A DNA stretch of 64,000 nt from Nemertoderma westbladi (Eukaryota; Animalia; Xenacoelomorpha): NCBI GenBank assembly GCA_032718475.1, contig JAUCBJ010008568.1:1-64000 (forward strand), in the 5' to 3' direction. Below the pieces are notes generated by a model that was not told the DNA's origin, made no database searches, and was given only the letters and a program-made list of their open reading frames with translations. Below are positions 18,116 through 59,096 of this stretch, one piece after another. A program made the position numbers and the translations under genes. Position 1 is the first letter of the stretch; every line of letters starts with the position of its first letter.

Positions 18116-18234
18116 ATTATTATTCGTATAGAAAATATGTATCCGAATATGTTGTGATACTGAAAGTAAACATAACTTCACTGTCTATCACGCATTTCCA
18201 AGGTTACGAAATTCAACTATTTTAATATATTTAG

Positions 18235-31792: not shown

Positions 31793-31868
31793 ATGTACAA
31801 GAAAATCAAACATAATTCGTCTGATATCAGAGAATGTTCTCATGCGGGGACGTGGTATAATAGTGATG
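31793..31868 (+). CDS. MEMO1: MEMO1 coding exon 1
   Basis: Translates as MYKKIKHNSSDIRECSHAGTWYNSD, matching the MEMO1 REASHAGSWY motif. The donor G|GTAAGT is phase 1 and compatible with the next exon. It is too short to appear in the ORF track. Confidence 0.85.
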
Positions 31869-32939: not shown

Positions 32940-33409
32940 GTAGTCATCGCAGTATTCCCCGCTTGTTGAAAGTGTCTTTTAGTTCAGAGCACGAGGCCAA
33001 ATTATTTCGCGAGTATTTTGATTCAGCTAGAAAGGATCAAGGTGACTTTGAATTCTCCGACTTGAAAGTTCGACCGAGCCTCAGTTTATCTACACGTAAG
33101 CTGGTTCAGGAACGTCGTAAGACTATATTCCAATGGAATAATAGTCATAATGTTGGCAACGTATCAGATCGGACTACGAGTTTCAGTGTTCGTGATAATG
33201 GCGACGTTTGGAAGTTCATCAAGGAGGTTGAGGGGGGTACCTGGAAGCGCGATCGATCGTGGCACTTCAACCCCGCTAGTCCGAATCCGACCTCCCTGGA
33301 TCAACCTTCTCCAACTCTTCCTGCTTCCATGCAACCGATTATCGCTACGCCAACACCTTCTCTGCGGGCTCCGGTCATTCCGGACACTCATAGTCAGGGA
33401 AACTGCTAA
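32940..33409 (+). CDS. CR1 ORF1 C-terminal part (5'-truncated)
   Basis: PRLLKVSF...LKVRPSLS...R is a typical ORF1 C-terminal signature. It is followed by a Pro/Ser/Thr-rich tail ending QGNC*. The 5' boundary is approximate. Confidence 0.6.
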
Positions 33410-36246
33410 AGGGAGAAGATCTAACTAACAAACCATCAAAAGCAGGACTTTCTAACCCGTGGTTAAAATGTGCGTGTATAAATGCGCGTTCCCTTAAAAA
33501 CAAACTTCCTGAGTTCGAAAATTTGTGTGATGCTTTGTACGACATAGTTGGTGTCACCGAAACTTGGTTAGATGCTACTGTTACAGACGCCATGCTTTCG
33601 CGTGCGGATAAATACAAAGTTTATCGTAATGATCGCCCATCTCGTGGAGGAGGTGTAGCCCTTTTAATCCATAACTCGATTAAATGCTCCCGTGTTCTGA
33701 TACCCCAAATATTTAACGATGTCGAGATTATCGCTGTTGACCTTCTCGGAAATGTTCCCAGTCGTATTGTATGTGTATACAGAAGTACTAGTCTTTCACC
33801 TGACCAGTCGGACATTTTGTATGGTTGCCTATCTAGTCTGTGTGACATTGACCGGCCCTGCGTAATAATGGGCGATTTTAATCTACCAGATTTTGATTGG
33901 GTTGAACTATCTCATCCGGACTCACAAATATATAATTCATGTTCTAATTTTGTTTTAGAATCTGGTCTTTCTCAACTTCAATTAGAGCCAACGCGCTTAG
34001 ATAATGTCCTAGACCTAGTTTTCTGTTCGGAAGACTTACATGTATCTTGTGTTTCAGTAATTGAAAATTTTTCTACTAGTGATCATGCTACAGTTTGTTT
34101 TAATATTATTTCCCCACATGAGTTAATTCAGCGAGATTGCATTGGTTTTCATGACTTTTCTAACTGTGACTATAACAAATTTTCGTCATATTTACAAAAT
34201 ATCAATTGGACTATCGAATTTCAATTATGTAACACTATAGATGATTTCTGGTGCAAATTTACAAGTATACTCAAAGTAGGTATTGATAATTGTGTGCCTT
34301 TCAAATCTATTAATCCTAATAAGAAAGCATACCCGGTTTATGTAAAGCAACTTCAGAATAATAAAAAGAAACTGTGGCGCCGCAGGCACACAGTATCTGG
34401 CAGAGCAGCTTACACTAAGGCTGCTAAAGCTGCTTCTCAGGGTGCATTCCGGGCTGCCTGCGCCAAAGAATGTAAAATTCTCAGCTCAGGAAGTCCGGAA
34501 GCAGTCTTTAAGTACACTAACTCACGAAAACGCAATAAAGCGGGTATTGCACCATTACAGTACAATGGTAATACTGTAGTTGATGATGTTACTAAAGCTA
34601 ATATATTTTCAATGGTACTCTCGCAAAACTTCAGTGAGGACAATGGGTCTATCCCACCATTTCCTAGAAAAGTACATTCTAGCGCCCAGTTATCTGATAT
34701 AAATTTTGAACCTGCAACTATTTTAACAATGCTGAGAAAACTGAAAGGCAAGACAAGCCGTACTCCGGATGATCTGCCAAGTATTTTATTTTCTAAACTT
34801 GCATTATTTTTAGCTGTGCCTTTATCAGTTATTTTTAATATATCATTTGCTTCCAATGCTCTGCCATCTGTTTGGCGTACTGCTTTAGTTATTCCATTGT
34901 ACAAGAAAGGCGATCCTTCGGACCCTTATAATTATAGACCTGTATCACTAACTTGTATAGCCTGTAAACTTATGGAAATGTGCATTAAAGTAGAGTTAAC
35001 TAAGTATCTTTTAGAACATAAATTGATATCAAAATCTCAGCATGGGTTCCTACAGCGTAGATCTACTTGTACGCAATTATTAGAGTGTATCACCGACTGG
35101 ACACAACTGCTTGATAATCGTAAGAATATTGATATTGTATACATTGATTTTGCTAAAGCTTTTGATTCGGTGGTGCACTCTAAGCTTTTGGCAAAACTGT
35201 CTTCATATGGTATCTGCGGCAATTTACTAGGTTGGATTGGTGCATTTTTGGCTAACAGAACTCAACGAATAGTGGTTGGTAATTGTTTTTCTGAAATTTG
35301 CAAGGTTACTTCAGGCACTCCCCAAGGTAGTGTTCTGGGACCTGTCCTGTTTCTGATTTTTATAAATGACCTTCCGGTGCTATTAGACTCTGTTACAGTT
35401 AAACTATTCGCTGATGACGTTAAACTATATTCTCCTGTTGTCGCTAATTGCAGTAATGCTAATCTTATTTCACAATCGCTTAACACGTTAGGTAACTGGG
35501 CTATCAGTTGGCAGTTAGGAGTGGCTGCCCATAAGTGCTCAGTTATACACATTGGTATTACAAATCCTTTGTTAACTTATTCACTCAATGACAAGCCGAT
35601 TAAATCAGTTTCTCATTGTAAAGATTTAGGTATTACTGTGTGCGACAACCTTAAGTTCGATAAATATTGTCGTGAACAAGTAGCTAAGGCTTATAAAATC
35701 TCTAACATGATTTTTCGTTGTTTCTATACGAACAACGAAAAGGCATTGCTTTTAGCCTACAAGGCATATGTTAGGCCTTTACTAGAGTATTGTACTCAAG
35801 TATGGTCGCCGTTCACGATGGGTAGTATCGATCTCATTGAAGGTGTGCAACGTTATTATACAAGACGTCTTTATCTTCGGTGCAATCTAGGTAGGACTAG
35901 TTATTTCGAACGATTGAAGCATTTTAAGCTACAACCATTAGAAATTCGCCGTATTATTTATGATCAAAAAATGGTTTTTTCTATTTTACACGGTCTGATA
36001 GATTTAGCCTTTGATGATTTTTTCTCTTATCCAGTGCGTAGTGGATTGAGAGGACACAACCACAAGCTATTGGTTAACTACAGTAGACTGCAAATTTCGA
36101 AATTTTCGTTTGCCAATCGCGCGATTCCAATATGGAATTCATTAGACGCAACAGTAGTAGATTCAGAGAGCTTACTCTCTTTTTCACGTAAATTACTCGA
36201 TGTTGATTTGCTGCATTTTTGCAAATTTGATAGAAACTTGGCGTGA
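33394..36246 (+). CDS. CR1-clade LINE ORF2 (APE endonuclease + RT), uninterrupted
   Basis: The frame is open from 33394 with no ATG before the APE motifs. Motifs: INARSLKNK, VTETWL, GGGV, MGDFN, LDLV, SDH, NYRPVSLT, QHGF, DFAKAFDSV, GTPQGSVLGPVLF, FADD, YVRPLLEY, LRGH, FANRAIPIWNSL. Confidence 0.93.
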   Translation, partial: SGKLLKGEDLTNKPSKAGLSNPWLKCACINARSLKNKLPEFENLCDALYDIVGVTETWLDATVTDAMLSRADKYKVYRNDRPSRGGGVALLIHNSIKCSRVLIPQIFNDVEIIAVDLLGNVPSRIVCVYRSTSLSPDQSDILYGCLSSLCDIDRPCVIMGDFNLPDFDWVELSHPDSQIYNSCSNFVLESGLSQLQLEPTRLDNVLDLVFCSEDLHVSCVSVIENFSTSDHATVCFNIISPHELIQRDCIGFHDFSNCDYNKFSSYLQNINWTIEFQLCNTIDDFWCKFTSILKVGIDNCVPFKSINPNKKAYPVYVKQLQNNKKKLWRRRHTVSGRAAYTKAAKAASQGAFRAACAKECKILSSGSPEAVFKYTNSRKRNKAGIAPLQYNGNTVVDDVTKANIFSMVLSQNFSEDNGSIPPFPRKVHSSAQLSDINFEPATILTMLRKLKGKTSRTPDDLPSILFSKLALFLAVPLSVIFNISFASNALPSVWRTALVIPLYKKGDPSDPYNYRPVSLTCIACKLMEMCIKVELTKYLLEHKLISKSQHGFLQRRSTCTQLLECITDWTQLLDNRKNIDIVYIDFAKAFDSVVHSKLLAKLSSYGICGNLLGWIGAFLANRTQRIVVGNCFSEICKVTSGTPQGSVLGPVLFLIFINDLPVLLDSVTVKLFADDVKLYSPVVANCSNANLISQSLNTLGNWAISWQLGVAAHKCSVIHIGITNPLLTYSLNDKPIKSVSHCKDLGITVCDNLKFDKYCREQVAKAYKISNMIFRCFYTNNEKALLLAYKAYVRPLLEYCTQVWSPFTMGSIDLIEGVQRYYTRRLYLRCNLGRTSYFERLKHFKLQPLEIRRIIYDQKMVFSILHGLIDLAFDDFFSYPVRSGLRGHNHKLLVNYSRLQISKFSFANRAIPIWNSLDATVVDSESLLSFSRKLLDVDLLHFCKFDRNLA

Positions 36247-38415: not shown

Positions 38416-38691
38416 CTTCATCGCTCTCACGGCAGTTGGACGGCTGGTTGAATAAAGCTTCAGACAGCGACGCGGAATGTTTGCGTCCAGCGCGTGCGAT
38501 TATCGCGCCCCATGCCGGCTACACCTACTGCGGCGACTGTGCTTCCTACGCTTACAGACAGGTGGAGCCCTCCATAGTCCGTAGAGTCTTCATACTTGGA
38601 CCTTCACACCATCGATATCTCTCGAAATGTGCCCTCACTAGCTGTCTCGTTTACAGAACTCCTTTTGGTAATCTACGAATCGACGCCGAGG
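38416..38691 (+). CDS. MEMO1: MEMO1 coding exon 2
   Basis: Acceptor CCCATTAG|CT. Translation includes [31 protein letters not shown] and [11 protein letters not shown]. The donor G|GTTGGT is phase 1. Confidence 0.92.
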
Positions 38692-39348: not shown

Positions 39349-39457
39349 TTTACCAAGCTTTAGAAGCAACTGAGAAGTTTGAAACTATCAGTAAACAAAC
39401 AGACGAAGATGAACACAGTATCGAGATGCAGTTGCCCTTTATAGCAAAAGTCATGGA
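39349..39457 (+). CDS. MEMO1: MEMO1 coding exon 3
   Basis: Acceptor TATTTTAG|TT. Translates as VYQALEATEKFETISKQTDEDEHSIEMQLPFIAKVME (EHS.EM motif). The donor GA|GTTAGT is phase 2. Confidence 0.9.
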
Positions 39458-39691: not shown

Positions 39692-39914
39692 GGACTATAT
39701 TGACCATGTTACCATAGTACCCATTTTAGTTGGGTCTATAAAGCTTGCAGAGGAGCGTTGCTATGGTGCTATATTGGCCCCTTACCTGGCCGACCCGTCT
39801 ACTTTATTTGTAATATCTTCGGATTTCTGCCACTGGGGACATCGATTCCGTTATACATATCACGATGCTACTCGTGGTCATATTCACCAGAGCATCCAAC
39901 ATTTAGATAGAATG
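39692..39914 (+). CDS. MEMO1: MEMO1 coding exon 4
   Basis: Acceptor TTTTTACAG|G. Translation includes TIVPILVGS, YGAILAPYLADPSTLFVISSDFCHWGHRFRY and IHQSIQHLDRM. The donor ATG|GTGAGT is phase 0. Confidence 0.92.
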
Positions 39915-42900
39915 GTGAGTCACTTACACCAGAGTATACAACATATAGATAGAATGGTAAGTCACTTACACCAGAGTATACAACATATAGATAGAATGGT
40001 GAGTCACTTACACCAGAGTATACAACATATAGATAGAATGGTGAGTCACTTACACCAGAGTATACAACATATAGATAGAATGGTGAGTCACTTACACCAG
40101 AGTATACAACATATAGATAGAATGGTGAGTCACTTACACCAGAGTATACAACATATAGATAGAATGGTGAGTCACTTACACCAGAGTATACAACATATAG
40201 ATAGAATGGTGAGTCACTTACACCAGAGTATACAACATATAGATAGAATGGTGAGTCACTTACACCAGAGTATACAACATATAGATAGAATGGTGAGTCA
40301 CTTACACCAGAGTATACAACATATAGATAGAATGGTGAGTCACTTACACCAGAGTATACAACATATAGATAGAATGGTGAGTCACTTACACCAGAGTATA
40401 CAACATATAGATAGAATGGTGACTCACTTACACCAGAGTATACAACATATAGATAGAATGGTGAGTCACTTACACCAGAGTATACAACATATAGATAGAA
40501 TGGTGAGTCACTTACACCAGAGTATACAACATATAGATAGAATGGTGAGTCACTTACACCAGAGCATCCAACATATAGATAGAATGGTGAGTCACTTACA
40601 CCAGAGTATACAACATATAGATAGAATGGTGAGTCACTTACAACAGAGTATACAACATATAGATAGAATGGTGAGTCACTTACACCAGAGTATACAACAT
40701 TTAGATAGAATGGTGAGTCACTTACACCAGAGTATACAACATATAGATAGAATGGTGAGTCACTTACACCAGAGTATACAACATATAGATGAATGGTTAG
40801 TCACTTACACCAGAGTATACAACATAGATAGAATGGTGAGTCACTTACACCAGAGTATACAACATAGATAGAATGGTGAGTCACTTACACCAGAGTATAC
40901 AACATAGATAGAATGGTGAGTCACTTACACCAGAGTATACAACATAGATAGAATGGTGAGTCACTTACACCAGAGTATACAACATATAGATAGAATGGTG
41001 AGTCACTTACACCAGAGTATACAACATATAGATAGAATGGTGAGTCACTTACACCAGATTATACAACATTTAGATAGAATGGTGAGTCACTTACACCAGA
41101 GTATACAACATATAGATGAATGGTTAGTCACTTACACCAGAGTATACAACATATAGATAGAATGGTGAGTCACTTACACCAGTGTATACAACATATAGAT
41201 AGAATGGTGAGTCACTTACACCAGAGTATACAACATATAGATAGAATGGTGAGTCACTTACACCAGAGTATACAACATATGGATAGAATGGTGAGTCACT
41301 TACACCAGAGTATACAACATCTAGATAGAATGGTGAGTCACTTACACCAGAGTATACAACATATAGATAGAATGGTGAGTCACTTACACCAGTGTATACA
41401 ACATATAGATAGAATGGTGAGTCACTTACACCAGAGTATACAACATATAGATAGAATGGTGAGTCACTTACACCAGAGTATACAACATATAGATAGAATG
41501 GTGAGTCACTTACACCAGAGTATACAACATATAGATAGAATGGTGAGTCACTTACACCAGAGTATACAACATTTAGATAGAATGGTGAGTCACTTACACC
41601 AGAGTATACAACATATAGATAGAATGGTGAGTCACTTACACCAGAGTATACAACATATAGATAGAATGGTGAGTCACTTACACCAGAGTATACAACATAT
41701 AGATAGAATGGTGAGTCACTTACACCAGAGTATACAACATTTAGATAGAATGGTGAGTCACTTACACCAGAGTATACAACATAGATAGAATGGTGAGTCA
41801 CTTACACCAGAGTATACATCATAGATAGAATGGTGAGTCACTTACACCAGAGTATACAACAAATAGATAGAATGGTGAGTCACTTACACCAGAGTATACA
41901 ACATAGATAGAATGGTGAGTCACTTACACCAGAGTATACAACATATAGATAGAATGGTGAGTCACTTACACCAGAGTATACAACATATAGATAGAATGGT
42001 GAGTCACTTACACCAGAGTATACAACATATAGATAGAATGGAGAGTCACTTACACCAGAGTATACAACATATAGATAGAATGGTGAGTCACTTACACCAG
42101 AGTATACAACATATATATAGAATGGTGAGTCACTTACATCAGAGTATACAACATATAGATAGAATGGTGAGTCACTTACACCAGAGTATACAACATATAG
42201 ATAGAATGGTGAGTCACTTACACCAGAGTATACAACATTTAGATAGAATGGTGAGTCACTTACACCAGAGTATACAACATATAGATAGAATGGTGAGTCA
42301 CTTACACCAGAGTATACAACATATAGATAGAATGGTGAGTCACTTACACCAGAGTATACAACATATAGATAGAATGGTGCGTCACTTACACCAGAGTATA
42401 CAACATAGATAGAATGGTGAGTCACTTACACCAGAGTATACATCATTAGATAGAATGGTGAGTCACTTACACCAGAGTATACAACATATAGATAGAATGG
42501 TGAGTCACTTACACCAGAGTATACAACATATAGATAGAATGGTGAGTCACTTACACCAGAGTATACAACATATAGATAGAATGGTGAGTCACTTACACCA
42601 GAGTATACAACATATAGATAGAATGGTGAGTCACTTACACCAGAGTATACAACATATAGATAGAATGGTGAGTCACTTACACCAGAGTATACAACAAATA
42701 GATAGAATGGTGAGTCACTTACACCAGAGTATACAACAAATAGATAGAATGGTGAGTCACTTACACCAGAGTATACAACATATAGATAGAATGGTGAGTC
42801 ACTTACACCAGAGTATACAACATATAGATAGAATGGTGAGTCACTTACACCAGAGTATACAACATATAGATAGAATGGTGAGTCACTTACACCAGAGTAT

Positions 42901-45900
42901 ACAACATATAGATAGAATGGTGAGTCACTTACACCAGAGTATACAACATTTAGATAGAATGGTGAGTCACTTACACCAGAGTATACAACATAGATAGAAT
43001 GGTGAGTCACTTACACCAGAGTATACATCATAGATAGAATGGTGAAACACTTACACCAGAGTATACAACATATAGATAGAATGGTGAGTCACTTACACCA
43101 GAGTATACAACATATAGATAGAATGGTGAGTCACTTACACCAGAGTATACAACATATAGATAGAATGGTGAGTCACTTACACCAGAGTATACAACATATA
43201 GATAGAATGGTGAGTCACTTACACCAGAGTATACAACATATAGATAGAATGGTGAGTCACTTACACCAGAGTATACAACATATAGATAGAATGGTGAGTC
43301 ACTTACACCAGAGTATACAACATATAGATAGAATGGTGAGTCACTTACACCAGAGTATACAACATATAGATAGAATGGTGAGTCACTTACACCAGAGTAT
43401 ACAACATATAGATAGAATGGTGAGTCACTTACACCAGAGTATACAACATATAGATAGAATGGTGAGTCACTTACACCAGAGTATACAACATATAGATAGA
43501 ATGGTGAGTCACTTACACCAGAGTATACAACATATAGATAGAATGGTGAGTCACTTACACCAGAGTATACAACATATAGATAGAATGGTGAGTCACTTAC
43601 ACCAGAGTATACAACATATAGATAGAATGGTGAGTCACTTACACCAGAGTATACAACATATAGATAGAATGGTGAGTCACTTACACCAGAGTATACAACA
43701 TATAGATAGAATGGTGAGTCACTTACACCAGAGTATACAACATATAGATAGAATGGTGAGTCACTTACACCAGAGTATACAACATATAGATAGAATGGTG
43801 AGTCACTTACACCAGAGTATACAACATATAGATAGAATGGTGAGTCACTTACACCAGAGTATACAACATATAGATAGAATGGTGAGTCACTTACACCAGA
43901 GTATACAACATATAGATAGAATGGTGAGTCACTTACACCAGAGTATACAACATATAGATAGAATGGTGAGTCACTTACACCAGAGTATACAACATATAGA
44001 TAGAATGGTGAGTCACTTACACCAGAGTATACAACATATAGATAGAATGGTGAGTCACTTACACCAGAGTATACAACATATAGATAGAATGGTGAGTCAC
44101 TTACACCAGAGTATACAACAATAGATAGAATGGTGAGTCACTTACACCAGAGTATACAACATTAGGTAGAATGGTGAGTCACTTACACCAGAGTATACAA
44201 CAAATAGATAGAATGGTGAGTCACTTACACCAGAGTATACAACATATAGATAGAATGGTGAGTCACTTACACCAGAGTATACAACATATAGATAGAATGG
44301 TGAGTCACTTACACCAGAGTATACAACATATAGATAGAATGGTGAGTCACTTAACACCAGAGTATACAACATTTAGATAGAATGGTGAGTCACTTACACC
44401 AGAGTATACAACAAATAGATAGAATGGTGAGTCACTTACACCAGAGTATACAACATATAGATAGAATGGTGAGTCACTTACACCAGAGTGGAGTATACAA
44501 CATTTAGATAGAATGGTGAGTCACTTACACCAGAGTATACAACATATAGATAGAATGGTGAGTCACTTACACCAGAGTATACAACATATAGATAGAATGG
44601 TGAGTCACTTACACCAGAGTATACAACATTTAGATAGAATGGTGAGTCACTTACACCAGAGTATACAACATATAGATAGAATGGTGAGTCACTTACACCA
44701 GAGTATACAACATATAGATAGAATGGTGAGTCACTTACACCAGAGTATACAACATTTAGATAGAATGGTGAGTCACTTACACCAGAGTATACAACATATA
44801 GATAGAATGGTGAGTCACTTACACCAGAGTATACAACATATAGATAGAATGGTGAGTCACTTACACCAGAGTATACAACATATAGATAGAATGGTGAGTC
44901 ACTTACACCAGAGTATACAACATATAGATAGAATGGTGAGTCACTTACACCAGAGTATACAACATATAGATAGAATGGTGAGTCACTTACACCAGAGTAT
45001 ACAACATATAGATAGAATGGTGAGTCACTTACACCAGAGTATACAACATATAGATAGAATGGTGAGTCACTTACACCAGAGTATACAACATATAGATAGA
45101 ATGGTGAGTCACTTACACCAGAGTATACAACATATAGATAGAATGGTGAGTCACTTACACCAGAGTATACAACATATAGATAGAATGGTGAGTCACTTAC
45201 ACCAGAGTATACAACATATAGATAGAATGGTGAGTCACTTACACCAGAGTATACAACATATAGATAGAATGGTGAGTCACTTACACCAGAGTATACAACA
45301 TTTAGATAGAATGGTGAGTCACTTACACCAGAGTATACAACATATAGATAGAATGGTGAGTCACTTACACCAGAGTATACAACATATAGATAGAATGGTG
45401 AGTCACTTACACCAGAGTATACAACATATAGATAGAATGGTGAGTCACTTACACCAGAGTATACAACATATAGATAGAATGGTGAGTCACTTACACCAGA
45501 GTATACAACATATAGATAGAATGGTGAGTCACTTACACCAGAGTATACAACATATAGATAGAATGGTGAGTCACTTACACCAGAGTATACAACATATAGA
45601 TAGAATGGTGAGTCACTTACACCAGAGTATACAACATATAGATAGAATGGTGAGTCACTTACACCAGAGTATACAACATATAGATAGAATGGTGAGTCAC
45701 TTACACCAGAGTATACAACATATAGATAGAATGGTGAGTCACTTACACCAGAGTATACAACATATAGATAGAATGGTGAGTCACTTACACCAGAGTATAC
45801 AACATATAGATAGAATGGTGAGTCACTTACACCAGAGTATACAACATATAGATAGAATGGTGAGTCACTTACACCAGAGTATACAACATATAGATAGAAT

Positions 45901-48900
45901 GGTGAGTCACTTACACCAGAGTATACAACATATAGATAGAATGGTGAGTCACTTACACCAGAGTATACAACATATAGATAGAATGGTGAGTCACTTACAC
46001 CAGAGTATACAACATATAGATAGAATGGTGAGTCACTTACACCAGAGTATACAACATATAGATAGAATGGTGAGTCACTTACACCAGAGTATACAACATA
46101 TAGATAGAATGGTGAGTCACTTACACCAGAGTATACAACATATAGATAGAATGGTGAGTCACTTACACCAGAGTATACAACATATAGATAGAATGGTGAG
46201 TCACTTACACCAGAGTATACAACATATAGATAGAATGGTGAGTCACTTACACCAGAGTATACAACATATAGATAGAATGGTGAGTCACTTACACCAGAGT
46301 ATACAACATATAGATAGAATGGTGAGTCACTTACACCAGAGTATACAACATATAGATAGAATGGTGAGTCACTTACACCAGAGTATACAACATATAGATA
46401 GAATGGTGAGTCACTTACACCAGAGTATACAACATATAGATAGAATGGTGAGTCACTTACACCAGAGTATACAACATATAGATAGAATGGTGAGTCACTT
46501 ACACCAGAGTATACAACATATAGATAGAATGGTGAGTCACTTACACCAGAGTATACAACATATAGATAGAATGGTGAGTCACTTACACCAGAGTATACAA
46601 CATATAGATAGAATGGTGAGTCACTTACACCAGAGTATACAACATATAGATAGAATGGTGAGTCACTTACACCAGAGTATACAACATATAGATAGAATGG
46701 TGAGTCACTTACACCAGAGTATACAACATATAGATAGAATGGTGAGTCACTTACACCAGAGTATACAACATATAGATAGAATGGTGAGTCACTTACACCA
46801 GAGTATACAACATATAGATAGAATGGTGAGTCACTTACACCAGAGTATACAACATATAGATAGAATGGTGAGTCACTTACACCAGAGTATACAACATATA
46901 GATAGAATGGTGAGTCACTTACACCAGAGTATACAACATATAGATAGAATGGTGAGTCACTTACACCAGAGTATACAACATATAGATAGAATGGTGAGTC
47001 ACTTACACCAGAGTATACAACATATAGATAGAATGGTGAGTCACTTACACCAGAGTATACAACATATAGATAGAATGGTGAGTCACTTACACCAGAGTAT
47101 ACAACATATAGATAGAATGGTGAGTCACTTACACCAGAGTATACAACATATAGATAGAATGGTGAGTCACTTACACCAGAGTATACAACATATAGATAGA
47201 ATGGTGAGTCACTTACACCAGAGTATACAACATATAGATAGAATGGTGAGTCACTTACACCAGAGTATACAACATATAGATAGAATGGTGAGTCACTTAC
47301 ACCAGAGTATACAACATATAGATAGAATGGTGAGTCACTTACACCAGAGTATACAACATATAGATAGAATGGTGAGTCACTTACACCAGAGTATACAACA
47401 TATAGATAGAATGGTGAGTCACTTACACCAGAGTATACAACATATAGATAGAATGGTGAGTCACTTACACCAGAGTATACAACATATAGATAGAATGGTG
47501 AGTCACTTACACCAGAGTATACAACATATAGATAGAATGGTGAGTCACTTACACCAGAGTATACAACATATAGATAGAATGGTGAGTCACTTACACCAGA
47601 GTATACAACATATAGATAGAATGGTGAGTCACTTACACCAGAGTATACAACATATAGATAGAATGGTGAGTCACTTACACCAGAGTATACAACATATAGA
47701 TAGAATGGTGAGTCACTTACACCAGAGTATACAACATATAGATAGAATGGTGAGTCACTTACACCAGAGTATACAACATATAGATAGAATGGTGAGTCAC
47801 TTACACCAGAGTATACAACATATAGATAGAATGGTGAGTCACTTACACCAGAGTATACAACATATAGATAGAATGGTGAGTCACTTACACCAGAGTATAC
47901 AACATATAGATAGAATGGTGAGTCACTTACACCAGAGTATACAACATATAGATAGAATGGTGAGTCACTTACACCAGAGTATACAACATATAGATAGAAT
48001 GGTGAGTCACTTACACCAGAGTATACAACATATAGATAGAATGGTGAGTCACTTACACCAGAGTATACAACATATAGATAGAATGGTGAGTCACTTACAC
48101 CAGAGTATACAACATATAGATAGAATGGTGAGTCACTTACACCAGAGTATACAACATATAGATAGAATGGTGAGTCACTTACACCAGAGTATACAACATA
48201 TAGATAGAATGGTGAGTCACTTACACCAGAGTATACAACATATAGATAGAATGGTGAGTCACTTACACCAGAGTATACAACATATAGATAGAATGGTGAG
48301 TCACTTACACCAGAGTATACAACATATAGATAGAATGGTGAGTCACTTACACCAGAGTATACAACATATAGATAGAATGGTGAGTCACTTACACCAGAGT
48401 ATACAACATATAGATAGAATGGTGAGTCACTTACACCAGAGTATACAACATATAGATAGAATGGTGAGTCACTTACACCAGAGTATACAACATATAGATA
48501 GAATGGTGAGTCACTTACACCAGAGTATACAACATATAGATAGAATGGTGAGTCACTTACACCAGAGTATACAACATATAGATAGAATGGTGAGTCACTT
48601 ACACCAGAGTATACAACATATAGATAGAATGGTGAGTCACTTACACCAGAGTATACAACATATAGATAGAATGGTGAGTCACTTACACCAGAGTATACAA
48701 CATATAGATAGAATGGTGAGTCACTTACACCAGAGTATACAACATATAGATAGAATGGTGAGTCACTTACACCAGAGTATACAACATATAGATAGAATGG
48801 TGAGTCACTTACACCAGAGTATACAACATATAGATAGAATGGTGAGTCACTTACACCAGAGTATACAACATATAGATAGAATGGTGAGTCACTTACACCA

Positions 48901-50725
48901 GAGTATACAACATATAGATAGAATGGTGAGTCACTTACACCAGAGTATACAACATATAGATAGAATGGTGAGTCACTTACACCAGAGTATACAACATATA
49001 GATAGAATGGTGAGTCACTTACACCAGAGTATACAACATATAGATAGAATGGTGAGTCACTTACACCAGAGTATACAACATATAGATAGAATGGTGAGTC
49101 ACTTACACCAGAGTATACAACATATAGATAGAATGGTGAGTCACTTACACCAGAGTATACAACATATAGATAGAATGGTGAGTCACTTACACCAGAGTAT
49201 ACAACATATAGATAGAATGGTGAGTCACTTACACCAGAGTATACAACATATAGATAGAATGGTGAGTCACTTACACCAGAGTATACAACATATAGATAGA
49301 ATGGTGAGTCACTTACACCAGAGTATACAACATATAGATAGAATGGTGAGTCACTTACACCAGAGTATACAACATATAGATAGAATGGTGAGTCACTTAC
49401 ACCAGAGTATACAACATATAGATAGAATGGTGAGTCACTTACACCAGAGTATACAACATATAGATAGAATGGTGAGTCACTTACACCAGAGTATACAACA
49501 TATAGATAGAATGGTGAGTCACTTACACCAGAGTATACAACATATAGATAGAATGGTGAGTCACTTACACCAGAGTATACAACATATAGATAGAATGGTG
49601 AGTCACTTACACCAGAGTATACAACATATAGATAGAATGGTGAGTCACTTACACCAGAGTATACAACATATAGATAGAATGGTGAGTCACTTACACCAGA
49701 GTATACAACATATAGATAGAATGGTGAGTCACTTACACCAGAGTATACAACATATAGATAGAATGGTGAGTCACTTACACCAGAGTATACAACATATAGA
49801 TAGAATGGTGAGTCACTTACACCAGAGTATACAACATATAGATAGAATGGTGAGTCACTTACACCAGAGTATACAACATATAGATAGAATGGTGAGTCAC
49901 TTACACCAGAGTATACAACATATAGATAGAATGGTGAGTCACTTACACCAGAGTATACAACATATAGATAGAATGGTGAGTCACTTACACCAGAGTATAC
50001 AACATATAGATAGAATGGTGAGTCACTTACACCAGAGTATACAACATATAGATAGAATGGTGAGTCACTTACACCAGAGTATACAACATATAGATAGAAT
50101 GGTGAGTCACTTACACCAGAGTATACAACATATAGATAGAATGGTGAGTCACTTACACCAGAGTATACAACATATAGATAGAATGGTGAGTCACTTACAC
50201 CAGAGTATACAACATATAGATAGAATGGTGAGTCACTTACACCAGAGTATACAACATATAGATAGAATGGTGAGTCACTTACACCAGAGTATACAACATA
50301 TAGATAGAATGGTGAGTCACTTACACCAGAGTATACAACATTTAGATAGAATGGTGAGTCACTTACACCAGAGTATACAACATATAGATAGAATGGTGAG
50401 TCACTTACACCAGAGTATACAACATATAGATAGAATGGTGAGTCACTTACACCAGAGTATACAACAAATAGATAGAATGGTGAGTCACTTACACCAGAGT
50501 ATACAACATTTAGATAGAATGGTGAGTCACTTACACCAGAGTATACAACATATAGATAGAATGGTGAGTCACTTACACCAGAGTATACAACATATAGATA
50601 GAATGGTGAGTCACTTACACCAGAGTATACAACAAATAGATAGAATGGTGAGTCACTTACACCAGAGTATACAACATATAGATAGAATGGTGAGTCACTT
50701 ACACCAGAGTATACAACATATAGAT
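39885..50725 (+). repeat. 42-bp minisatellite (about 258 copies) derived from the MEMO1 exon 4/intron 4 junction
   Basis: The unit CACCAGAGTATACAACATATAGATAGAATG|GTGAGTCACTTA is the last 30 nt of exon 4 (3 substitutions) plus the first 12 intron nt. Copy number is estimated as length/42. Confidence 0.98.
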
Positions 50726-50850
50726 TTCCGCCTAGATTCCGGATTTAGTGCACCGGATACCCGACTGTCCGATCCGGCCGGATATGCGGCGGATTTTGGG
50801 CAAAATCTGCTATCCGGCCGGATAGTTGAAAAATCCGGCGATCCACCGTA
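50726..50850. mobile_element. Fragment of a CCGG-rich MITE end (hAT-like subterminal repeats)
   Basis: Repeated TCCGG/CCGGAT motifs (GCACCGGATACCCG, ATCCGGCCGGATA twice), similar in style to TAGGGATGCG...CCGGA at about 24640-24740. Confidence 0.4.
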
Positions 50851-51327
50851 TAATTTGTATAGTCAATGTTTTGTATAACCTTTGTTATTAATACTCACTT
50901 TTTCTTTTAATAATTTTAATTTAATACTCAGCTGCCAAAAATATGTTCACGACAAGTTTACTGCATGTTCTGAAAGAGTCCAAAATCGAATCTGAATTAC
51001 TGGTATATAATATATTTTGATAAGATACTCAGATACTTCTGCTATCTGATAGCAGCTGTTAATACTACGCTGGATTTAAATGGCAATCCTCAAACGTCAC
51101 GTGAAGGTCTGGATCGAAAGGCAATTTTAAGAGTAAAAATATGTTAATATAAATATTTATTATTAATTCTTAGAGAATTATTACATTCTACTTTATACAA
51201 TATTATAAAAAGTTTTTCCTTCAATAGCGTTTATTTTTCGTTGCAATACAGTTTTAAGAGGTTTACTCGGCCCTCTACATTAGATTATCCAACCGAAGTA
51301 ACCAACTAATACTTTCCGTTCTCCCAG

Positions 51328-51666
51328 GGTATGGATCTGATTGAGCAACTGGATGCCGATGGCTTTTACGATTATCTAAAACAATACGCGAACACAATCT
51401 GTGGTCGCCATCCCATCTCGGTGCTGCTAAACGCTATACACGAGTTGAGTAACCACAACGGTCATTCGTGTATAACCCTTCGATTCCTTAAGTACAAACA
51501 GTCTAGCAGGTGTAAACACAACAGTGACAGTTCCGTGAGTTACGCTGCCGCCTCGCTGGTTGTCCGCCCGTTAAACAGCACGGTCCATAGAGGAGGCGGA
51601 GATGCATCAGCCAATCGCAGGTCGGAAGAGTCAACGACCAATCACGCTTCCGGATCACGTCGGTGA
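51328..51666 (+). CDS. MEMO1: MEMO1 coding exon 5 (terminal)
   Basis: Acceptor TTCTCCCAG|GGT. Translation includes [28 protein letters not shown] and [11 protein letters not shown]...[10 protein letters not shown]. The five exons sum to 1023 nt (340 aa plus stop). Confidence 0.93.
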
Positions 51667-52273
51667 CGTCATCATATCTGTTCTACTTACTACTGCGAGG
51701 AACCTTGCTTTGTTATAGAAACGAACTGTCTGGTTGATTCTACTTATTGGGATAAATACATACGGACCATTCCCAACCCATATGTTCTCACGGTTACGTG
51801 TATTTTAATTATTCCTGTTACTTGTTTTAGAACTACTTATTCTATTGCCTAACACATGCCTAACTTATAAAAGAAAACCTGCCTAACTCTTCCTATTCGA
51901 AGAATTTGTCATTGTCTTTGTCTTCTCTGTCTTTGTCTTTTTGTTATTTTTTGTTACAAGTTTGTCGTCGATATTGTCACATATTGTGGTTATTATAAGA
52001 ATATTGATCTAAATAAATTTAATTTAATACAACGCAAATAAATTTATCTTCAATATTGTGATAACCCCCAACCCACATTAAGCTTCACCTTCAGCAAACA
52101 ATGCGGAAAAGCGAAAGGCGTTTGCTGCAATGGGATGCCTTTCGAATCTCCATATTTTATCAGTTGCTGTTACGGGGATGAAAATCTTCCATATGAAATT
52201 CTACGCCCTTGCGCCTTGTGACATACGCGTTCCCTTTCGTACGAAAATTTCTCACCCTAAACCAAAAGTACTC

Positions 52274-55200
52274 GATATAATTAAGGCAAGATTTGTTAAA
52301 CGCCTGCTAGGATATAATTAAGGCAAGATTTGTTAAACGCCTGCTAGGATATAATTAATACAAGATTTGTTAAACGCCTGCTAGGATATAATTAATGCAA
52401 GATTTGTTAAACGCCTGCTAGGATATAATTAAGGCAAGATTTGTTAAACGCCTGCTAGGATATAATTAATGCAAGATTTGTTAAACGCCTGCTAGGATAT
52501 AATTAATGCAAGATTTGTTAAACGCCTGCTAGGGTATAATTAATGCAAGATATGTTAAACGCCTGCTAGGATATAATTAAGGCAAGATTTGTTAAACGCC
52601 TGCTAGGATATAATTAATGCAAGATTTGTTAAACGCCTGCTAGGATATAATTAAGGCAAGATTTGTTAAACGCCTGCTAGGATATAATTAATGCAAGATT
52701 TGTTAAACGCCTGCTAGGATATAATTAATGCAAGATTTGTTAAACGCCTGCTAGGATATAATTAATGCAAGATTTGTTAAACGCCTGCTAGGATATAATT
52801 AAGGCAAGATTTGTTAAACGCCTGCTAGGATATAATTAATGCAAGATTTGTTAAACACCTGCTAGGATATAATTAATACAAGATTTGTTAAACGCCTGCT
52901 AGGATATAATTAATGCAAGATTTGTTAAACGCCTGCTAGGATATAATTAATGCAAGATTTGTTAAACGCCTGCTAGGATATAATTAATGCAAGATTTGTT
53001 AAACGCCTGCTAGGATATAATTAAGGCAAGATTTGTTAAACGCCTGCTAGGATATAATTAATGCAAGATTTGTTAAACGCCTGCTAGGATATAATTAATG
53101 CAAGATTTGTTAAACGCCTGCTAGGATATAATTAAGGCAAGATTTGTTAAACGCCTGCTAGGGTATAATTAATGCAAGATTTGTTAAACGCCTGCTAGGA
53201 TATAATTAATGCAAGATTTGTTAAACGCCTGCTAGGATATAATTAATGCAAGATTTGTTAAACGCCTGCTAGGATACAATTAAGGCAAGATTTGTTAAAC
53301 GCCTGCTAGGATATAATTAATGCAAGATTTGATAAACGCCTGCTAGGATATAATTAAGGCAAGATTTGTTAAACGCCTGCTAGGATATAATTAAGGCAAG
53401 ATTTGTTAAACGCCTGCTAGGATATAATTAATGCAAGATTTGTTAAACGCCTGCTAGGATATAATTAAGGCAAGATTTGTTAAACGCCTGCTAGGATATA
53501 ATTAATGCAAGATTTGTTAAACGCCTGCTAGGATATAATTAAGGCAAGATTTGTTAAACGCCTGCTAGGATATAATTAATGCAAGATTTGTTAAACGCCT
53601 GCTAGGATATAATTAAGGCAAGATTTGTTAAACGCCTGCTAGAGGATATAATTAAGGCAAGATTTTTAAACGCCTGCTAGGATATAATTAAGGCAAGATT
53701 TGTTAAACGCCTGCTAGGATATAATTAATGCAAGATTTGTTAAACGCCTGCTAGGATATAATTAAGGCAAGATTAGTTAAACGCCTGCTAGGATATAATT
53801 AATGCAAGATTTGTTAAACGCCTGCTAGGATATAATTAATGCAAGATTTGTTAAACGCCTGCTAGGATATAATTAATGCAAGATTTGTTAAACACCTGCT
53901 AGGATATAATTAATGCAAGATTTGTTAAACGCCTGCTAGGATATAATTAATGCAAGATTTGTTAAACGCCTGCTAGGATATAATTAATGCAAGATTTGTT
54001 AAACACCTGCTAGGATATAATTAATGCAAGATTTGTTAAACGCCTGCTAGGATATAATTAATGCAAGATTTGTTAAACACCTGCTAGGATATAATTAATG
54101 CAAGATTTGTTAAACGCCTGCTAGGATATAATTAATGCAAGATTTGTTAAACACCTGCTAGGATATAATTAATGCAAGATTTGTTAAACGCCTGCTAGGA
54201 TATAATTAAGGCAAGATTTGTTAACGCGCCTGCTAGGATATAATTAAGGCAAGATTTGTTAAACGCCTGCTAGGATATAATTAAGGCAAGATTTGTTAAA
54301 CGCCTGCTAGGATATAATTAAGGCAAGATTTGTTAAACGCCTGCTAGGATATAATTAATGCAAGATTTGTTAAACGCCTGCTAGGATATAATTAAGGCAA
54401 GATTTGTTAAACGCCTGCTAGGATATAATTAATGCAAGATTTGTTAAACGCCTGCTAGGATATAATTAATACAAGATTTGTTAAACGCCTGCTAGGATAT
54501 AATTAATGCAAGATTTGTTAAACGCCTGCTAGGATATAATTAATGCAAGATTTGTTAAACGCCTGCTAGGATATAATTAATGCAAGATTTGTTAAACGCC
54601 TGCTAGGTTATAATTAATGGAAGATTTGTTAAACGCCTGCTAGGATATAATTAATGCAAGATTTGTTAAACGCCTGCTAGGATATAATTAATGCAAGATT
54701 TGTTAAACGCCTGCTAGGATATAATTAATGCAAGATTTGTTAAACGCCTGCTAGGATATAATTAATGCAAGATTTGTTAAACGCCTGCTAGGATATAATT
54801 AATGCAAGATTTGTTAAACGCCTGCTAGGATATAATTAATGCAAGATTTGTTAAACGCCGGCTAGGATATAATTAAGGCAAGATTTGTTAAACGCCTGCT
54901 AGGATATAATTAAGGCAAGATTTGTTAAACGCCTGCTAGGATATAATTAATGCAAGATTTGTTAAACGCCTGCTAGGATATAATTAATGCAAGATTTGTT
55001 AAACGCCTGCTAGGATATAATTAATGCAAGATTTGTTAAACGCCTGCTAGGATATAATTAATGCAAGATTTGTTAAACGCCTGCTAGGATATAATTAAGG
55101 CAAGATTTGTTAAACGCCTGCTAGGGTATAATTAATGCAAGATTTGTTAAACGCCTGCTAGGATATAATTAATGCAAGATTTGTTAAACGCCTGCTAGGA

Positions 55201-58198
55201 TATAATTAATGCAAGATTTGTTAAACGCCTGCTAGGATATAATTAAGGCAAGATTTGTTAAACGCCTGCTAGGATATAATTAATGCAAGATTTGTTAAAC
55301 GCCTGCTAGGATATAATTAAGGCAAGATTTGTTAAACGCCTGCTAGGATATAATTAAGGCAAGATTTGTTAAACGCCTGCTAGGATATAATTAATGCAAG
55401 ATTTGTTAAACGCCTGCTGGGATATAATTAAGGCAAGATTTGTTAAACGCCTGCTAGGATATAATTAATGCAAGATTTGTTAAACACCTGCTAGGATATA
55501 ATTAATGCAAGATTTGTTAAACGCCTGCTAGGATATAATTAAGGCAAGATTTGTTAAACGCCTGCTAGAGGATATAATTAAGGCAAGATTTGTTAAACGC
55601 CTGCTAGGATATAATTAATGCAAGATTTGTTAAACGCCTGCTAGGATATAATTAATGCAAGATTTGTTAAACGCCTGCTAGGATATAATTAAGGCAAGAT
55701 TTGTTAAACGCCTGCTAGGATATAATTAAGGCAAGATTTGTTAAACGCCTGCTAGGATATAATTAAGGCAAGATTTGTTAAACGCCTGCTGGATATAATT
55801 AAGGCAAGATTTGTTAAACGCCTGCTAGGATATAATTAATGCAAGATTTGTTAAACGCCTGCTAGGATATAATTAAGGCAAGATTTGTTAAACGCCTGCT
55901 GGATATAATTAAGGCAAGATTTGTTAAACGCCTGCTAGGATATAATTAATGCAAGATTTGTTAAACACCTGCTAGGATATAATTAATGCAAGATTTGTTA
56001 AACGCCTGATAGGATATAATTAATGCAAGATTTGTTAAACGCCTGCTAGGATATAATTAATGCAAGATTTGTTAAACGCCTGCTAGGATATAATTAATGC
56101 AAGATTTGTTAAACGCCTGATAGGATATAATTAATGCAAGATTTGTTAAACGCCTGCTAGGATATAATTAATGCAAGATTTGTTAACGCGCCTGCTAGGA
56201 TATAATTAATGCAAGATTTGTTAAACGCCTGCTAGGATATAATTAATGCAAGATTTGTTAAACGCCTGCTAGGATATAATTAATGCAAGATTTGTTAAAC
56301 GCCTGCTAGGATATAATTAATGCAAGATTTGTTAAACGCCTGCTAGGATATAATTAATGCAAGATTTGTTAAACGCCTGCTAGGATATAATTAATACAAG
56401 ATTTGTTAAACGCCTGCTAGGATATAATTAATGCAAGATTTGTTAAACGCCTGCTAGGATATAATTAAGGCAAGATTTGTTAAACGCCTGCTAGGTTATA
56501 ATTAATGCAAGATTTGTTAAACGCCTGCTAGGATATAATTAATGCAAGATTTGTTAAACGCCTGCTAGGATATAATTAATGCAAGATTTGTTAAACGCCT
56601 GCTAGGATATAATTAATGCAAGATTTGTTAAACGCCTGCTAGGATATAATTAAGGCAAGATTTGTTAACGCGCCTGCTAGGATATAATTAAGGCAAGATT
56701 TGTTAAACGCCTGCTAGGATATAATTAAGGCAAGATTTGTTAAACGCCTGCTAGGATATAATTAAGGCAAGATTTGTTAAACGCCTGCTAGGATATAATT
56801 AAGGCAAGATTTGTTAAACGCCTGCTAGAGGATATAATTAAGGCAAGATTTGTTAAACGCCTGCTAGGATATAATTAATGCAAGATTTGTTAAACGCCTG
56901 CTAGGATATAATTAATACAAGATTTGTTAAACGCCTGCTAGGATATAATTAATGCAAGATTTGTTAAACGCCTGCTAGGATATAATTAAGGCAAGATTTG
57001 TTAAACGCCTGCTAGGATATAATTAAGGCAAGATTTGTTAAACGCCTGCTGGATATAATTAAGGCAAGATTTGTTAAACGCCTGCTAGGATATAATTAAT
57101 GCAAGATTTGTTAAACGCCTGCTAGGATATAATTAAGGCAAGATTTGTTAAACGCCTGCTGGATATAATTAAGGCAAGATTTGTTAAACGCCTGCTAGGA
57201 TATAATTAATGCAAGATTTGTTAAACACCTGCTAGGATATAATTAATGCAAGATTTGTTAAACGCCTGATAGGATATAATTAATGCAAGATTTGTTAAAC
57301 GCCTGCTAGGATATAATTAATGCAAGATTTGTTAAACGCCTGCTAGGATATAATTAATGCAAGATTTGTTAAACGCCTGATAGGATATAATTAATGCAAG
57401 ATTTGTTAAACGCCTGCTAGGATATAATTAATGCAAGATTTGTTAACGCGCCTGCTAGGATATAATTAATGCAAGATTTGTTAAACGCCTGCTAGGATAT
57501 AATTAATGCAAGATTTGTTAAACGCCTGCTAGGATATAATTAATGCAAGATTTGTTAAACGCCTGCTAGGATATAATTAATGCAAGATTTGTTAAACGCC
57601 TGCTAGGATATAATTAATGCAAGATTTGTTAAACGCCTGCTAGGATATAATTAATACAAGATTTGTTAAACGCCTGCTAGGATATAATTAATGCAAGATT
57701 TGTTAAACGCCTGCTAGGATATAATTAAGGCAAGATTTGTTAAACGCCTGCTAGGTTATAATTAATGCAAGATTTGTTAAACGCCTGCTAGGATATAATT
57801 AATGCAAGATTTGTTAAACGCCTGCTAGGATATAATTAATGCAAGATTTGTTAAACGCCTGCTAGGATATAATTAATGCAAGATTTGTTAAACGCCTGCT
57901 AGGATATAATTAATGCAAGATTTGTTAAACGCCTGCTAGGATATAATTAATGCAAGATTTGTTAAACGCCTGCTAGGATATAATTAAGGCAAGATTTGTT
58001 AAACTCCTGCTAGGATATAATTAAGGCAAGATTTGTTAAACGCCTGCTAGGATATAATTAATGCAAGATTTGTTAAACGCCTGCTAGGATATAATTAATG
58101 CAAGATTTGTTAAACGCCTGCTAGGATATAATTAATGCAAGATTTGTTAAACGCCTGCTATGATATAATTAATGCAAGATTTGTTAAACGCCTGCTAA
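52274..58198. repeat. 37-bp minisatellite (about 160 copies)
   Basis: Unit GATATAATTAA(T/G)GCAAGATTTGTTAAACGCCTGCTAG. Confidence 0.98.
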
Positions 58199-58361
58199 GA
58201 CTGTCAAAAACTGCCTCATCTACTGTACTATGGCTCTCAGAGCCGTAAATGAAAAAACATTCTGTGAAGACATTATTGATAAAACATAGAATGTTTTCAA
58301 ACTCGAAATAATTTAAGACTACAGACAATACAGGCGAGTGCGTGATGATACTTCTATAAAC

Positions 58362-58630
58362 CAGGGCTTCTTAAATGGACCGGCGTTTATAAATTCGTCT
58401 TGGATAGGAGCTCTCCAACAGAACAGCCACACCATAACTAGAACTACGGCCCATGGTTGGCACTTCAAATTATGCTCAAACTCTGAACCATTCGACAGGG
58501 CTTCTTAAATGGACCGGCGTTTATAAATTCGTCTTGGATAGGAGCTCTCCAACAGAACAGCCACACCATAACTAGAACTACGGCCCATGGTTGGCACTTC
58601 AAATTATGCTCAAACTCTGAACCATTCGAC
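58362..58630. repeat. 134-bp exact tandem duplication
   Basis: CAGGGCTTCTTAAATGGACC...AACCATTCGA starts at 58362 and again at 58496. Confidence 0.95.
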
Positions 58631-59096
58631 GATCGATCGGATCAGTGTTTATGAAACTTTTGCGACAGCTCAGCCCATCACCTGTGCCACGTGCTAGACT
58701 GCCCCAACCGTCCCTCTTTAAAATCATTATCGAATTCTGTGAAATTTAAAGTCTATTTTAACGTTAAATTTTTAAACTATATTGTTTTAATTTAAATTTT
58801 ATTTATAACGATTAAACACTCATTCACCCCGATCATGGGGTGATCACAATATATATTTGAAAAATATATATTATTGTGATAAAAAATGTATAAAGTTTCA
58901 CCCATCTCTTACCTGAAAAAATGCAGCTGTAAATTTAGAACGGATGAGTTATCCGACATAATATTTGACACCTCAAATTTTATGGAACTCTATTTCAATA
59001 TTAATATTAATATTGCTTTTCTTTTATTTTTTCATTCTTTGATTTATTTTGTAACAACTAGGGTATACTCTATAAGCCAGCCATATCGACTTATAC

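What the first reader, a model, noticed from the sequence alone, without database searches (positions are those of the whole stretch)
39885..51327. Last MEMO1 intron is an array of about 250 tandem, frame-preserving copies of its own 5' splice donor
Seen: each 42-nt unit is the end of exon 4 (HQSIQH[L/I]DRM) plus GTGAGTCACTTA, so nearly every unit presents ATG|GTGAGT. The unit is exactly 14 codons, has no stop, and matches the phase 0 of exon 5 (|GGT ATG, giving DRM-GM as in MEMO1 orthologues). The first 21 donor positions (39915 + 42k, up to 40755) are in frame with no intervening stop. The second donor (39957) is a perfect GTAAGT, closer to consensus than the native one. Indels from about 40790 onward put a stop upstream of all later donors. 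Inference: donor choice could produce a ladder of MEMO1 isoforms with 0-20 extra 14-aa modules, with distal donors feeding NMD, so repeat length would tune isoform mix or expression. Alternatively, the cell must silence about 250 near-identical donors. Established: short VNTRs spanning a donor are known (e.g. human CBS intron 13), but I know of none at this 11-kb in-frame scale.
Basis: partly seen in the sequence, partly recalled or inferred. Interest (0 to 1): 0.85.

Follow-up and report, generated by a model that had tools for sequence, protein, structure and literature searches.

The report
Giant splice-donor minisatellite in MEMO1 intron
In an invertebrate animal's MEMO1 gene, the end of one exon and its splice signal are repeated about 258 times into the next intron; this type of repeat is already known from human, lancelet and chicken genes, and it is likely harmless because the cell would mostly use the first signal.

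Summary
The array is in the sequence as described. It has 258.6 copies of a 42-bp unit (30 exonic + 12 intronic bases) at 39885-50725, with 257 ATG|GT donors, in the last intron of an intact five-exon MEMO1 gene. Corrections: it ends at 50725, and 22 donors, not 21, are in frame and stop-free. The open frame is unremarkable: chance is about 0.3, 17 units break frame, and substitutions show no coding selection. It belongs to a described kind: junction-spanning minisatellites (human F7, CBS, IFI6; lancelet 'mirages'; chicken 'exon stuttering', up to 23.5 kb and 44 copies). In the reported cases the first donor is used, at most with two more nearby. The most likely reading is a neutral expansion spliced at the native donor, with possible leak at donor 2 giving a 14-residue longer protein that would probably fold. 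No RNA or reads could be examined, so donor use is untested. The scan has already noted many such arrays elsewhere in this genome (one a ~470-copy MEMO1 array) and in other animals. A gecko MEMO1 gene model hints at an independent repeat at the same donor.

The parts
31793..31868 (+). MEMO1 coding exon 1 (ATG to donor GTAAGT)
   Evidence: weak tblastn hits to the N-terminal motif of homologues; closes the open five-exon model
38416..38691 (+). MEMO1 exon 2
   Evidence: Pfam Memo E 2.8e-23; tblastn
39349..39457 (+). MEMO1 exon 3
   Evidence: Pfam Memo E 1.4e-6; boundaries
39692..39914 (+). MEMO1 exon 4 (223 nt); its last 30 nt are the exonic part of the first repeat unit
   Evidence: human MEMO1 PDB chains E 4.6e-26
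39885..50725 (+). 42-bp minisatellite, 258.6 copies, unit = 30 exonic + 12 intronic nt; ends in a 24-nt partial unit
39912..39920 (+). native donor ATG|GTGAGT (intron starts 39915)
   Evidence: restores the ungapped homologue alignment across exons 4-5; open model
39954..39962 (+). donor 2, ATG|GTAAGT, the likeliest leak site; would add 14 residues in frame
   Evidence: use is inferred, untested
39915..40841 (+). stretch holding the 22 in-frame, stop-free donors (1-21 and 23 at 40836); donor 22 at 40796 frameshifts
40869..40871 (+). first stop codon in the exon-4 frame; all 234 later donors lie downstream of it
39873..39884 (+). exon stretch that matches the 12 intronic bases of the unit at 5 of 12 positions in register (GTCA 42 nt apart); possible seeding microhomology
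   Evidence: role inferred
50726..51327 (+). non-array 3' part of intron 4 (602 nt) with pyrimidine tract and acceptor CAG
   Evidence: no second copy in the window by self-BLAST
51328..51666 (+). MEMO1 last coding exon, phase 0, to stop TGA
   Evidence: Pfam Memo E 5e-14

Best explanation
A 42-bp piece spanning the MEMO1 exon 4/intron 4 junction stands in about 258 tandem copies; it is likely a neutral minisatellite ('mirage' or exon stutter), and splicing likely uses mainly the first, native donor, so normal MEMO1 would be made. Shown: the anatomy, the intact gene, the absence of a coding-selection signal in the array, and two more multi-kb arrays next door. Inferred: (1) a local duplication across the junction, perhaps at the GTCA microhomology 42 nt apart, seeded the array; (2) slippage or unequal exchange expanded and homogenised it, leaving native-like relics; (3) exon definition or oriented 5'-to-3' choice picks the most upstream donor, so the other 256 are simply spliced out with the intron; (4) any leak is mostly at donors 2-3 and adds 14 or 28 residues; (5) rare use of far donors gives stop-bearing RNA that is probably degraded.
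For: The gene is intact: 340-aa open frame, canonical GT/AG. 188 of 221 homologues with both flanking motifs keep the native spacing. No selection signal: open frame by chance 0.30; 17 of 257 units break frame; P 0.24 for the first 21 being clean; 4 of 15 substitutions synonymous against 15% expected, P 0.18; 4 of 15 hit the donor 9-mer. Three arrays fill 21,366 of the last 24,116 bases of the window, so expansion is a regional habit. Precedent: F7 uses only the most upstream of identical donors, whatever the repeat number, and also when downstream sites are improved to consensus value 91 (PMC1557585). LMNB2 and PDGF use only the authentic donor (cited there). Lancelet mirages do not disturb splicing (PMC3087553; PMC3902484).
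Against: There is no RNA evidence from this locus. CBS and IFI6 use two pseudo-donors besides the authentic one, and in F7 a perfect downstream donor took about 70-90% of splicing; donor 2 here is GTAAGT. Predicted opening energy as the donors emerge is lower for donors 2 and 3 (2.0 and 1.1 kcal/mol) than for the native one (4.1). The F7 rule was shown in mammalian cells with up to 12 repeats, not in an invertebrate with 258. Two of the three fixed differences between exon and consensus unit are synonymous and the third is Leu to Ile, which could hint at constraint, though three sites prove nothing.
Confidence: 0.72

Rival explanations
1. Leaky mirage: donor 2 (GTAAGT), and perhaps donor 3, take a sizeable share (over 10%) of splicing and give +14 or +28 residue MEMO1 isoforms that fold, as an unselected by-product.
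For: CBS and IFI6 precedents. Perfect downstream donors compete in F7. Donors 2-3 are predicted more open when they emerge. The junction lies inside helix 209-225 of a homologue model (pLDDT 97; residue 219 = exon end), and the last repeat supplies residues 209-219 again, so the extra piece would loop out ahead of the helix. At that place 7 unnamed homologues among the 33 off-length rows carry 15-21 extra residues.
Against: U1 duplex energy is equal for donors 1-3. ATG|GTAAGT lacks the -3/-2 match of the perfect F7 test site. F7 sites at consensus value 91 did not compete.
Confidence: 0.15
2. Selected isoform ladder: donor choice yields 0-21 extra modules, far donors feed nonsense-mediated decay, and repeat length tunes MEMO1 output.
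For: 22 of 257 donors are in frame and stop-free, and 232 have a stop more than 50 nt upstream. The insertion site may tolerate extra residues.
Against: The frame is near chance. There is no synonymous excess, and the clean proximal run is not significant. F7 donor choice was independent of repeat number. 0 of 486 fetched proteins carried this repeat's words in tandem. Neighbouring arrays show that arrays arise here without such a role.
Confidence: 0.05
3. Intron-definition outcome: the donor nearest the acceptor (about 50690, leaving an intron of about 640 nt) wins, so this allele makes mostly stop-bearing RNA and is crippled.
For: A preference for the intron-proximal of duplicated strong donors is reported for in vitro substrates (recalled, not read here). 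The gene's introns 2 and 3 are short (657 and 234 nt).
Against: It would need an 11-kb internal exon. The coding sequence is intact with its conserved motifs. All junction-minisatellite cases read here use upstream donors.
Confidence: 0.04
4. Assembly artefact: the array, or much of its length, was produced by the assembler.
For: A run of 119 identical units (130-248) lies in an array whose first 116 units hold 44 of the 49 variants. No reads were available.
Against: Linked variants recur: a 41-bp unit with two changes appears twice, and a four-unit pattern repeats at units 249 and 253. Both ends join unique, coherent gene sequence. The next array shows a duplicated block of about 24 units. 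These argue that the array exists; its exact length stays open.
Confidence: 0.04

Closest known systems
Human CBS intron 13 31-bp VNTR, c.1444_1467+7(16_21) (PMC2630376, passages; splicing outcome as cited in PMC1557585; Lievers 2001 not read)
   Same: The unit is mostly exon end plus the first intron bases (24+7 there, 30+12 here), and the donor is reiterated in each copy.
   Different: 16-21 copies against 258; 31 bp shifts frame while 42 bp keeps it; two pseudo-donors are used in CBS, and use is unknown here.
Human F7 IVS7 37-bp minisatellite, with IFI6 (6-16), LMNB2 and PDGF cases (PMC1557585, parts 1-4 of 6 read)
   Same: The first monomer spans the exon-intron boundary and identical donors follow. 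It supplies the tested rule that the most upstream donor is chosen.
   Different: 5-9 copies (up to 25 pseudo-sites in IFI6); only 4 exonic bases per F7 unit; mammalian; splicing measured there, not here.
Amphioxus 'mirage' minisatellites: Adh3, globins BflGb6/BflGb9, troponin C, PGBD5 (PMC3087553 passages; PMC3902484 passage; the Adh3 paper known only through these)
   Same: Invertebrate; tandem copies of an exon-intron boundary with intact splice signals; concerted evolution with divergent edge units; unit 10-160 bp.
   Different: 3-6 copies in BflGb6 against 258; length instability was shown there and is untested here.
Chicken dot-chromosome 'exon stuttering' (PMC12954441, passages)
   Same: Local expansion of an exon edge with its splice site into the intron; median exonic part 36 bp; spans up to 23,555 bp; accompanied by intergenic and intronic repeats in the same regions.
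   Different: 1-44 imperfect copies in GC-rich DNA against 258 near-identical copies in 36% GC DNA. The authors found it only in birds (and gerbils); invertebrates are not treated in the passages seen.

Membership tests
junction-spanning minisatellite (mirage / exon stuttering) | head-to-tail tandem array with a unit of tens of bases | tested here: met
   42 bp x 258.6, 98%
junction-spanning minisatellite (mirage / exon stuttering) | first unit spans a true exon-intron boundary of a real gene | tested here: met
   exon 4 end aligns to MEMO1 homologues and structures; GT/AG model open
junction-spanning minisatellite (mirage / exon stuttering) | splice signal reiterated intact in most copies | tested here: met
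   251 of 257 ATG|GT sites read ATGGTGAGT
junction-spanning minisatellite (mirage / exon stuttering) | local origin (unit not a dispersed repeat) | tested here: inconclusive
   no other copy in the 64-kb window; unit derives from the adjacent exon; no whole genome held
junction-spanning minisatellite (mirage / exon stuttering) | tandem-repeat turnover: homogenised interior, divergent edge or relic units | tested here: met
   native unit differs from consensus at 3 sites; native states survive in unit 17 and in 12 scattered units; 119-unit pure run
junction-spanning minisatellite (mirage / exon stuttering) | length polymorphism between alleles or individuals | not testable with these tools
   no reads or second haplotype in hand; an unchecked scan note (e1-10614283) reports ~470 copies on another piece of this assembly
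junction-spanning minisatellite (mirage / exon stuttering) | authentic donor remains the main one used | not testable with these tools
   no RNA holder was listed
functional coding VNTR (selected in-frame repeat isoforms) | frame and codons of the repeats under purifying selection | tested here: not met
   17 frameshifting units; 4 of 15 substitutions synonymous, P 0.18; low power
array of acceptor-flanked microexons | pyrimidine tract before the unit's AG like the gene's true acceptors | tested here: not met
   pyrimidine fraction 0.38-0.50 for the 3 unit AGs scored against 0.69-0.88 for the 4 true acceptors

The most novel reading that the evidence does not exclude
This animal stutters splice donors into satellites of hundreds of copies across its genome, and at MEMO1 the stutter is read by the spliceosome. 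Donor 2 and its neighbours make foldable +14-residue isoforms in which the last repeat rebuilds the split helix, so the array acts as a length-variable coding extension that also trades sequence with the true exon end. The same MEMO1 donor seems to have been stuttered independently in a gecko, which would mark particular donors as recurrent seeds and tie the mutation process to splicing itself.
Probability: 0.1. Interest if true: 0.65.

Novelty: new member of a known kind. Interest (0 to 1): 0.27.

Why it matters
As a single locus it is a large example of a known oddity. Its value is as a natural test of 5' splice-site choice: one native donor against 256 near-identical ones over 11 kb, which reads can tell apart by three exonic bases. 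The F7 rule was tested with up to 12 repeats in mammalian cells. Copy number exceeds every published case that I read (at most 44), though the span does not. If the scan's unchecked notes hold, the more interesting object is the genome-wide habit of amplifying donors, not this gene. Such arrays also mislead gene prediction, as the gecko model suggests.

Tried and rejected
RNA and reads: the look-up of sequencing runs for exon 4 and its upstream intron listed no RNA holder; this is no evidence either way, and no reads could be laid. No whole genome is held, so no genome-wide donor-enrichment test was possible. A metagenome scan for 27 bases of the unit found 0 stretches. Rfam on 38000-64000 gave 0 matches.
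U1-mimic idea: each unit carries ACTTAC just after the donor and folding pairs the donors (unpaired probability under 0.001 in repeats, 0.002 native). I rejected it as a discriminator: 7% of 200 donor-fixed shuffles are as closed, the true exon 2 donor is as closed, and opening energies do not favour the native donor. The exon 1 and exon 3 values used off-by-one coordinates, corrected. Fold z-score is -2.29, with 4 of 200 shuffles as stable; a repeat inflates this.
Microexon-array idea (CAG...GT in each unit, in frame): rejected for lack of a pyrimidine tract. Pfam hits to the 2,076-codon repeat frame (88 families) are low-complexity coiled-coil noise, as are the top repeat hits.
Organism: best ADCY9 identities are about 43-45%, to a nemertean, a hemichordate and bivalves, and best MEMO1 exon identity is 71%, so only 'invertebrate animal without close relatives in the database' can be said. 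The post-array sequence looks transposon-like to me (recalled) but has no Pfam hit and no second copy in the window.
Paper searches listed no report of a MEMO1 array; I read no case above 44 copies. Most listings were not opened, and supplements were not consulted (the per-gene list of PMC12954441 may bear on copy numbers).
Full report
Observation. Tandem Repeats Finder reports one array at 39885-50725, period 42, 258.6 copies, 98% matches, and the raw sequence shows it. Cut into units, 208 of 258 segments are the consensus, and there are 26 types. The unit is the last 30 bases of an exon plus GTGAGTCACTTA. There are 257 ATG|GT sites including the native one; 251 read ATGGTGAGT, one is GTAAGT (donor 2, 39957) and five are weaker. 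The array stops in a 24-base partial unit, and 602 bases of other intron follow, so it fills 10,811 of 11,413 intron bases.

The gene. Exons 2-5 each match Pfam Memo, exon 4 matches human MEMO1 chains at E 4.6e-26, and tblastn with 11 of the 120 fetched homologues places five exons (exon 1 only weakly). The model 31793-31868, 38416-38691, 39349-39457, 39692-39914, 51328-51666 has GT/AG at all four introns and one open frame of 340 codons. Only the native donor restores the ungapped alignment across exons 4 and 5. The host is an invertebrate animal with no close relative in the protein database: about 43-45% best identity for the neighbouring ADCY9-like gene and 71% for exon 4.

Donor consequences. 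Of 257 donors, 22 are in frame with no stop (1-21, and 23 at 40836). Donor 22 frameshifts to a stop in the last exon, 2 have a stop within 50 nt of the junction, and 232 have a stop further upstream. The first stop is at 40869. The 50-nt decay rule is recalled and is mammalian; in many invertebrates decay follows other cues.

Is the open frame meaningful? No sign of it. A junction-spanning unit copies stop-free exon codons, so it needs only a length divisible by three and no stop in its intronic codons: about 0.30. Seventeen of 257 units break frame. The chance that none lies in the first 21 is 0.24, and the last 147 units, which no ladder could reach, are just as clean. Four of 15 distinct substitutions are synonymous against 15% expected (P 0.18), and four fall in the donor 9-mer. 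Against this, the three fixed differences between the exon and the consensus unit are two synonymous and one Leu to Ile. The test has low power.

History (inferred). The exon bases 42 nt upstream of the intron start match it at 5 of 12 positions, including GTCA in register, which is a possible seed. Native states survive in unit 17 and in 12 scattered units, as expected from homogenisation that spares some copies, or from exchange with the exon. Two more arrays follow: 37 bp x 160 and 32 bp x 143. The three fill 21,366 of the last 24,116 bases. The 32-bp unit also holds a GTGAGT after a candidate 65-nt exon (chance about 0.03 per unit), though its peptide has no Pfam hit.

Is it real? Recurring linked variants and a repeated four-unit pattern, and a duplicated block of about 24 units in the next array, argue for real arrays. 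A run of 119 identical units leaves the length uncertain.

How splicing likely copes. In human F7, five to nine identical donors follow the exon and only the most upstream is used. Inactivating it moves splicing to the next. Deleting or adding repeats (up to 12) changes nothing, sites improved to consensus value 91 do not compete, and perfect sites take about 70-90% (PMC1557585, parts 1-4 of 6). The same paper cites CBS and IFI6, where two pseudo-donors are also used, and LMNB2 and PDGF, where none is. Lancelet mirages do not disturb splicing (PMC3087553; PMC3902484; passages). I therefore expect native-donor splicing, with possible leak at donor 2. U1 pairing energy is equal for donors 1-3 (U1 motif recalled). 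RNA structure does not single out the native donor: all are predicted paired, 7% of 200 shuffles are as closed, and donors 2-3 are somewhat more open as they emerge.

What a leak would make. In a model of a fish homologue (pLDDT 97) the junction falls after residue 219, inside helix 209-225. The last included repeat would supply the first half of that helix again, so the extra 14 residues would loop out before it. Of 221 fetched proteins with both flanking motifs, 188 keep the usual spacing. Among the 33 that do not, 7 unnamed ones carry 15-21 extra residues at that loop (predicted proteins, some may be model errors). A +14 isoform would probably fold. The isoform itself was not folded, so this is inference from the homologue.

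Known kind. CBS c.1444_1467+7(16_21) has the same build, 24 exonic plus 7 intronic bases (PMC2630376, passages). Chicken exon stuttering covers 236 introns in 115 genes, 1-44 copies, up to 23,555 bp (PMC12954441, passages). The tested membership features are met; polymorphism and donor use could not be tested. The copy number is above any case I read, and the span is not. Ten paper searches listed no MEMO1 array; most listings were not opened.

Scan notes (unchecked leads). In this genome 73 of 79 notes fit my look-up words, and the 8 shown all describe donor-seeded arrays, several saying that the RNA seen uses the first donor and one reporting use of a variant copy. One note describes a ~470-copy array in the last MEMO1 intron on another piece. 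Look-ups by sequence returned nothing, so I cannot say whether it is the other allele or a paralogue. The word 'mirage' and the lancelet and F7 papers came to me from these notes, and I read the papers myself as stated.

A side result. Among 348 fetched MEMO1-like proteins, 3 have a repeat after the active-site motif. Two are Gly/Ser stretches. The third is Gekko japonicus XP_015263938.1, where the usual exon is replaced by two 12-residue units, each ending in EHLDKM, the second starting with VS, while Gekko kuhli is normal there. This looks like a gene model built on a 36-bp repeat of the same donor. It is protein-level evidence only.

Verdict. The feature is real, corrected in detail, and a new, very large member of a known kind, most likely neutral. 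The ladder reading is unsupported but not excluded for one or two steps. Interest 0.27.

Noticed in passing
protein P0012 (Gekko japonicus MEMO1, XP_015263938.1), residues about 198-221: The predicted protein replaces the normal exon with two 12-residue units ending in EHLDKM, the second starting with VS. This is likely a 36-bp junction repeat at the donor homologous to this one; Gekko kuhli is normal there. DNA not seen.
   Followed up: partly
window 59062-63697 (+): A 32-bp x 143 array contains GAT|GTGAGT, follows a T-rich tract, TAG and an open 65-nt candidate exon, and is bounded by GAGT 32 nt apart. It is likely a second donor-spanning array of an unidentified gene; no Pfam hit.
   Followed up: partly
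window 52274-58197: A 37-bp x 160 array with a duplicated block of about 24 units in its variant pattern. It is flanked on the minus strand by two short exon-like open frames (52163-52255, 58161-58370) without a significant Pfam match.
   Followed up: partly
window 39921-39932 and each unit: ACTTAC, the complement of a consensus donor, follows every donor (so the minus strand carries GTAAGT in each unit). Folding pairs the donors, but no more than 7% of shuffles do.
   Followed up: yes
window 44490-50725: The distal 147 units are free of frameshifts and give stop-free frames of over 2,000 codons on both strands; a by-product of the repeat that gene finders may call as a gene.
   Followed up: partly
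window 51568-51666: MEMO1 here runs about 30 codons past the usual C-terminus (340 aa against about 297); no Pfam match for the tail.
   Followed up: no
window 15689-20562 (+): Adenylate cyclase type 9-like gene in two very large coding exons, only about 43-45% identical to its best database matches.
   Followed up: partly
window 33394-36243 (+): A 950-codon open endonuclease/reverse transcriptase frame (LINE-type) inside MEMO1 intron 1; other broken LINE-like frames at about 2600-6200, 10500-14000 and 28769-29947.
   Followed up: no
window 50726-50830: The array ends mid-unit against a GC-rich stretch with CCGGAT/ATCCGG motifs that resembles a small transposon end (recalled resemblance); an insertion or deletion may have removed the original junction.
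   Followed up: partly
window 16892-17797: A 900-bp imperfect palindrome (84% self-complementary) in the ADCY9-like intron, probably a foldback or MITE element.
   Followed up: no
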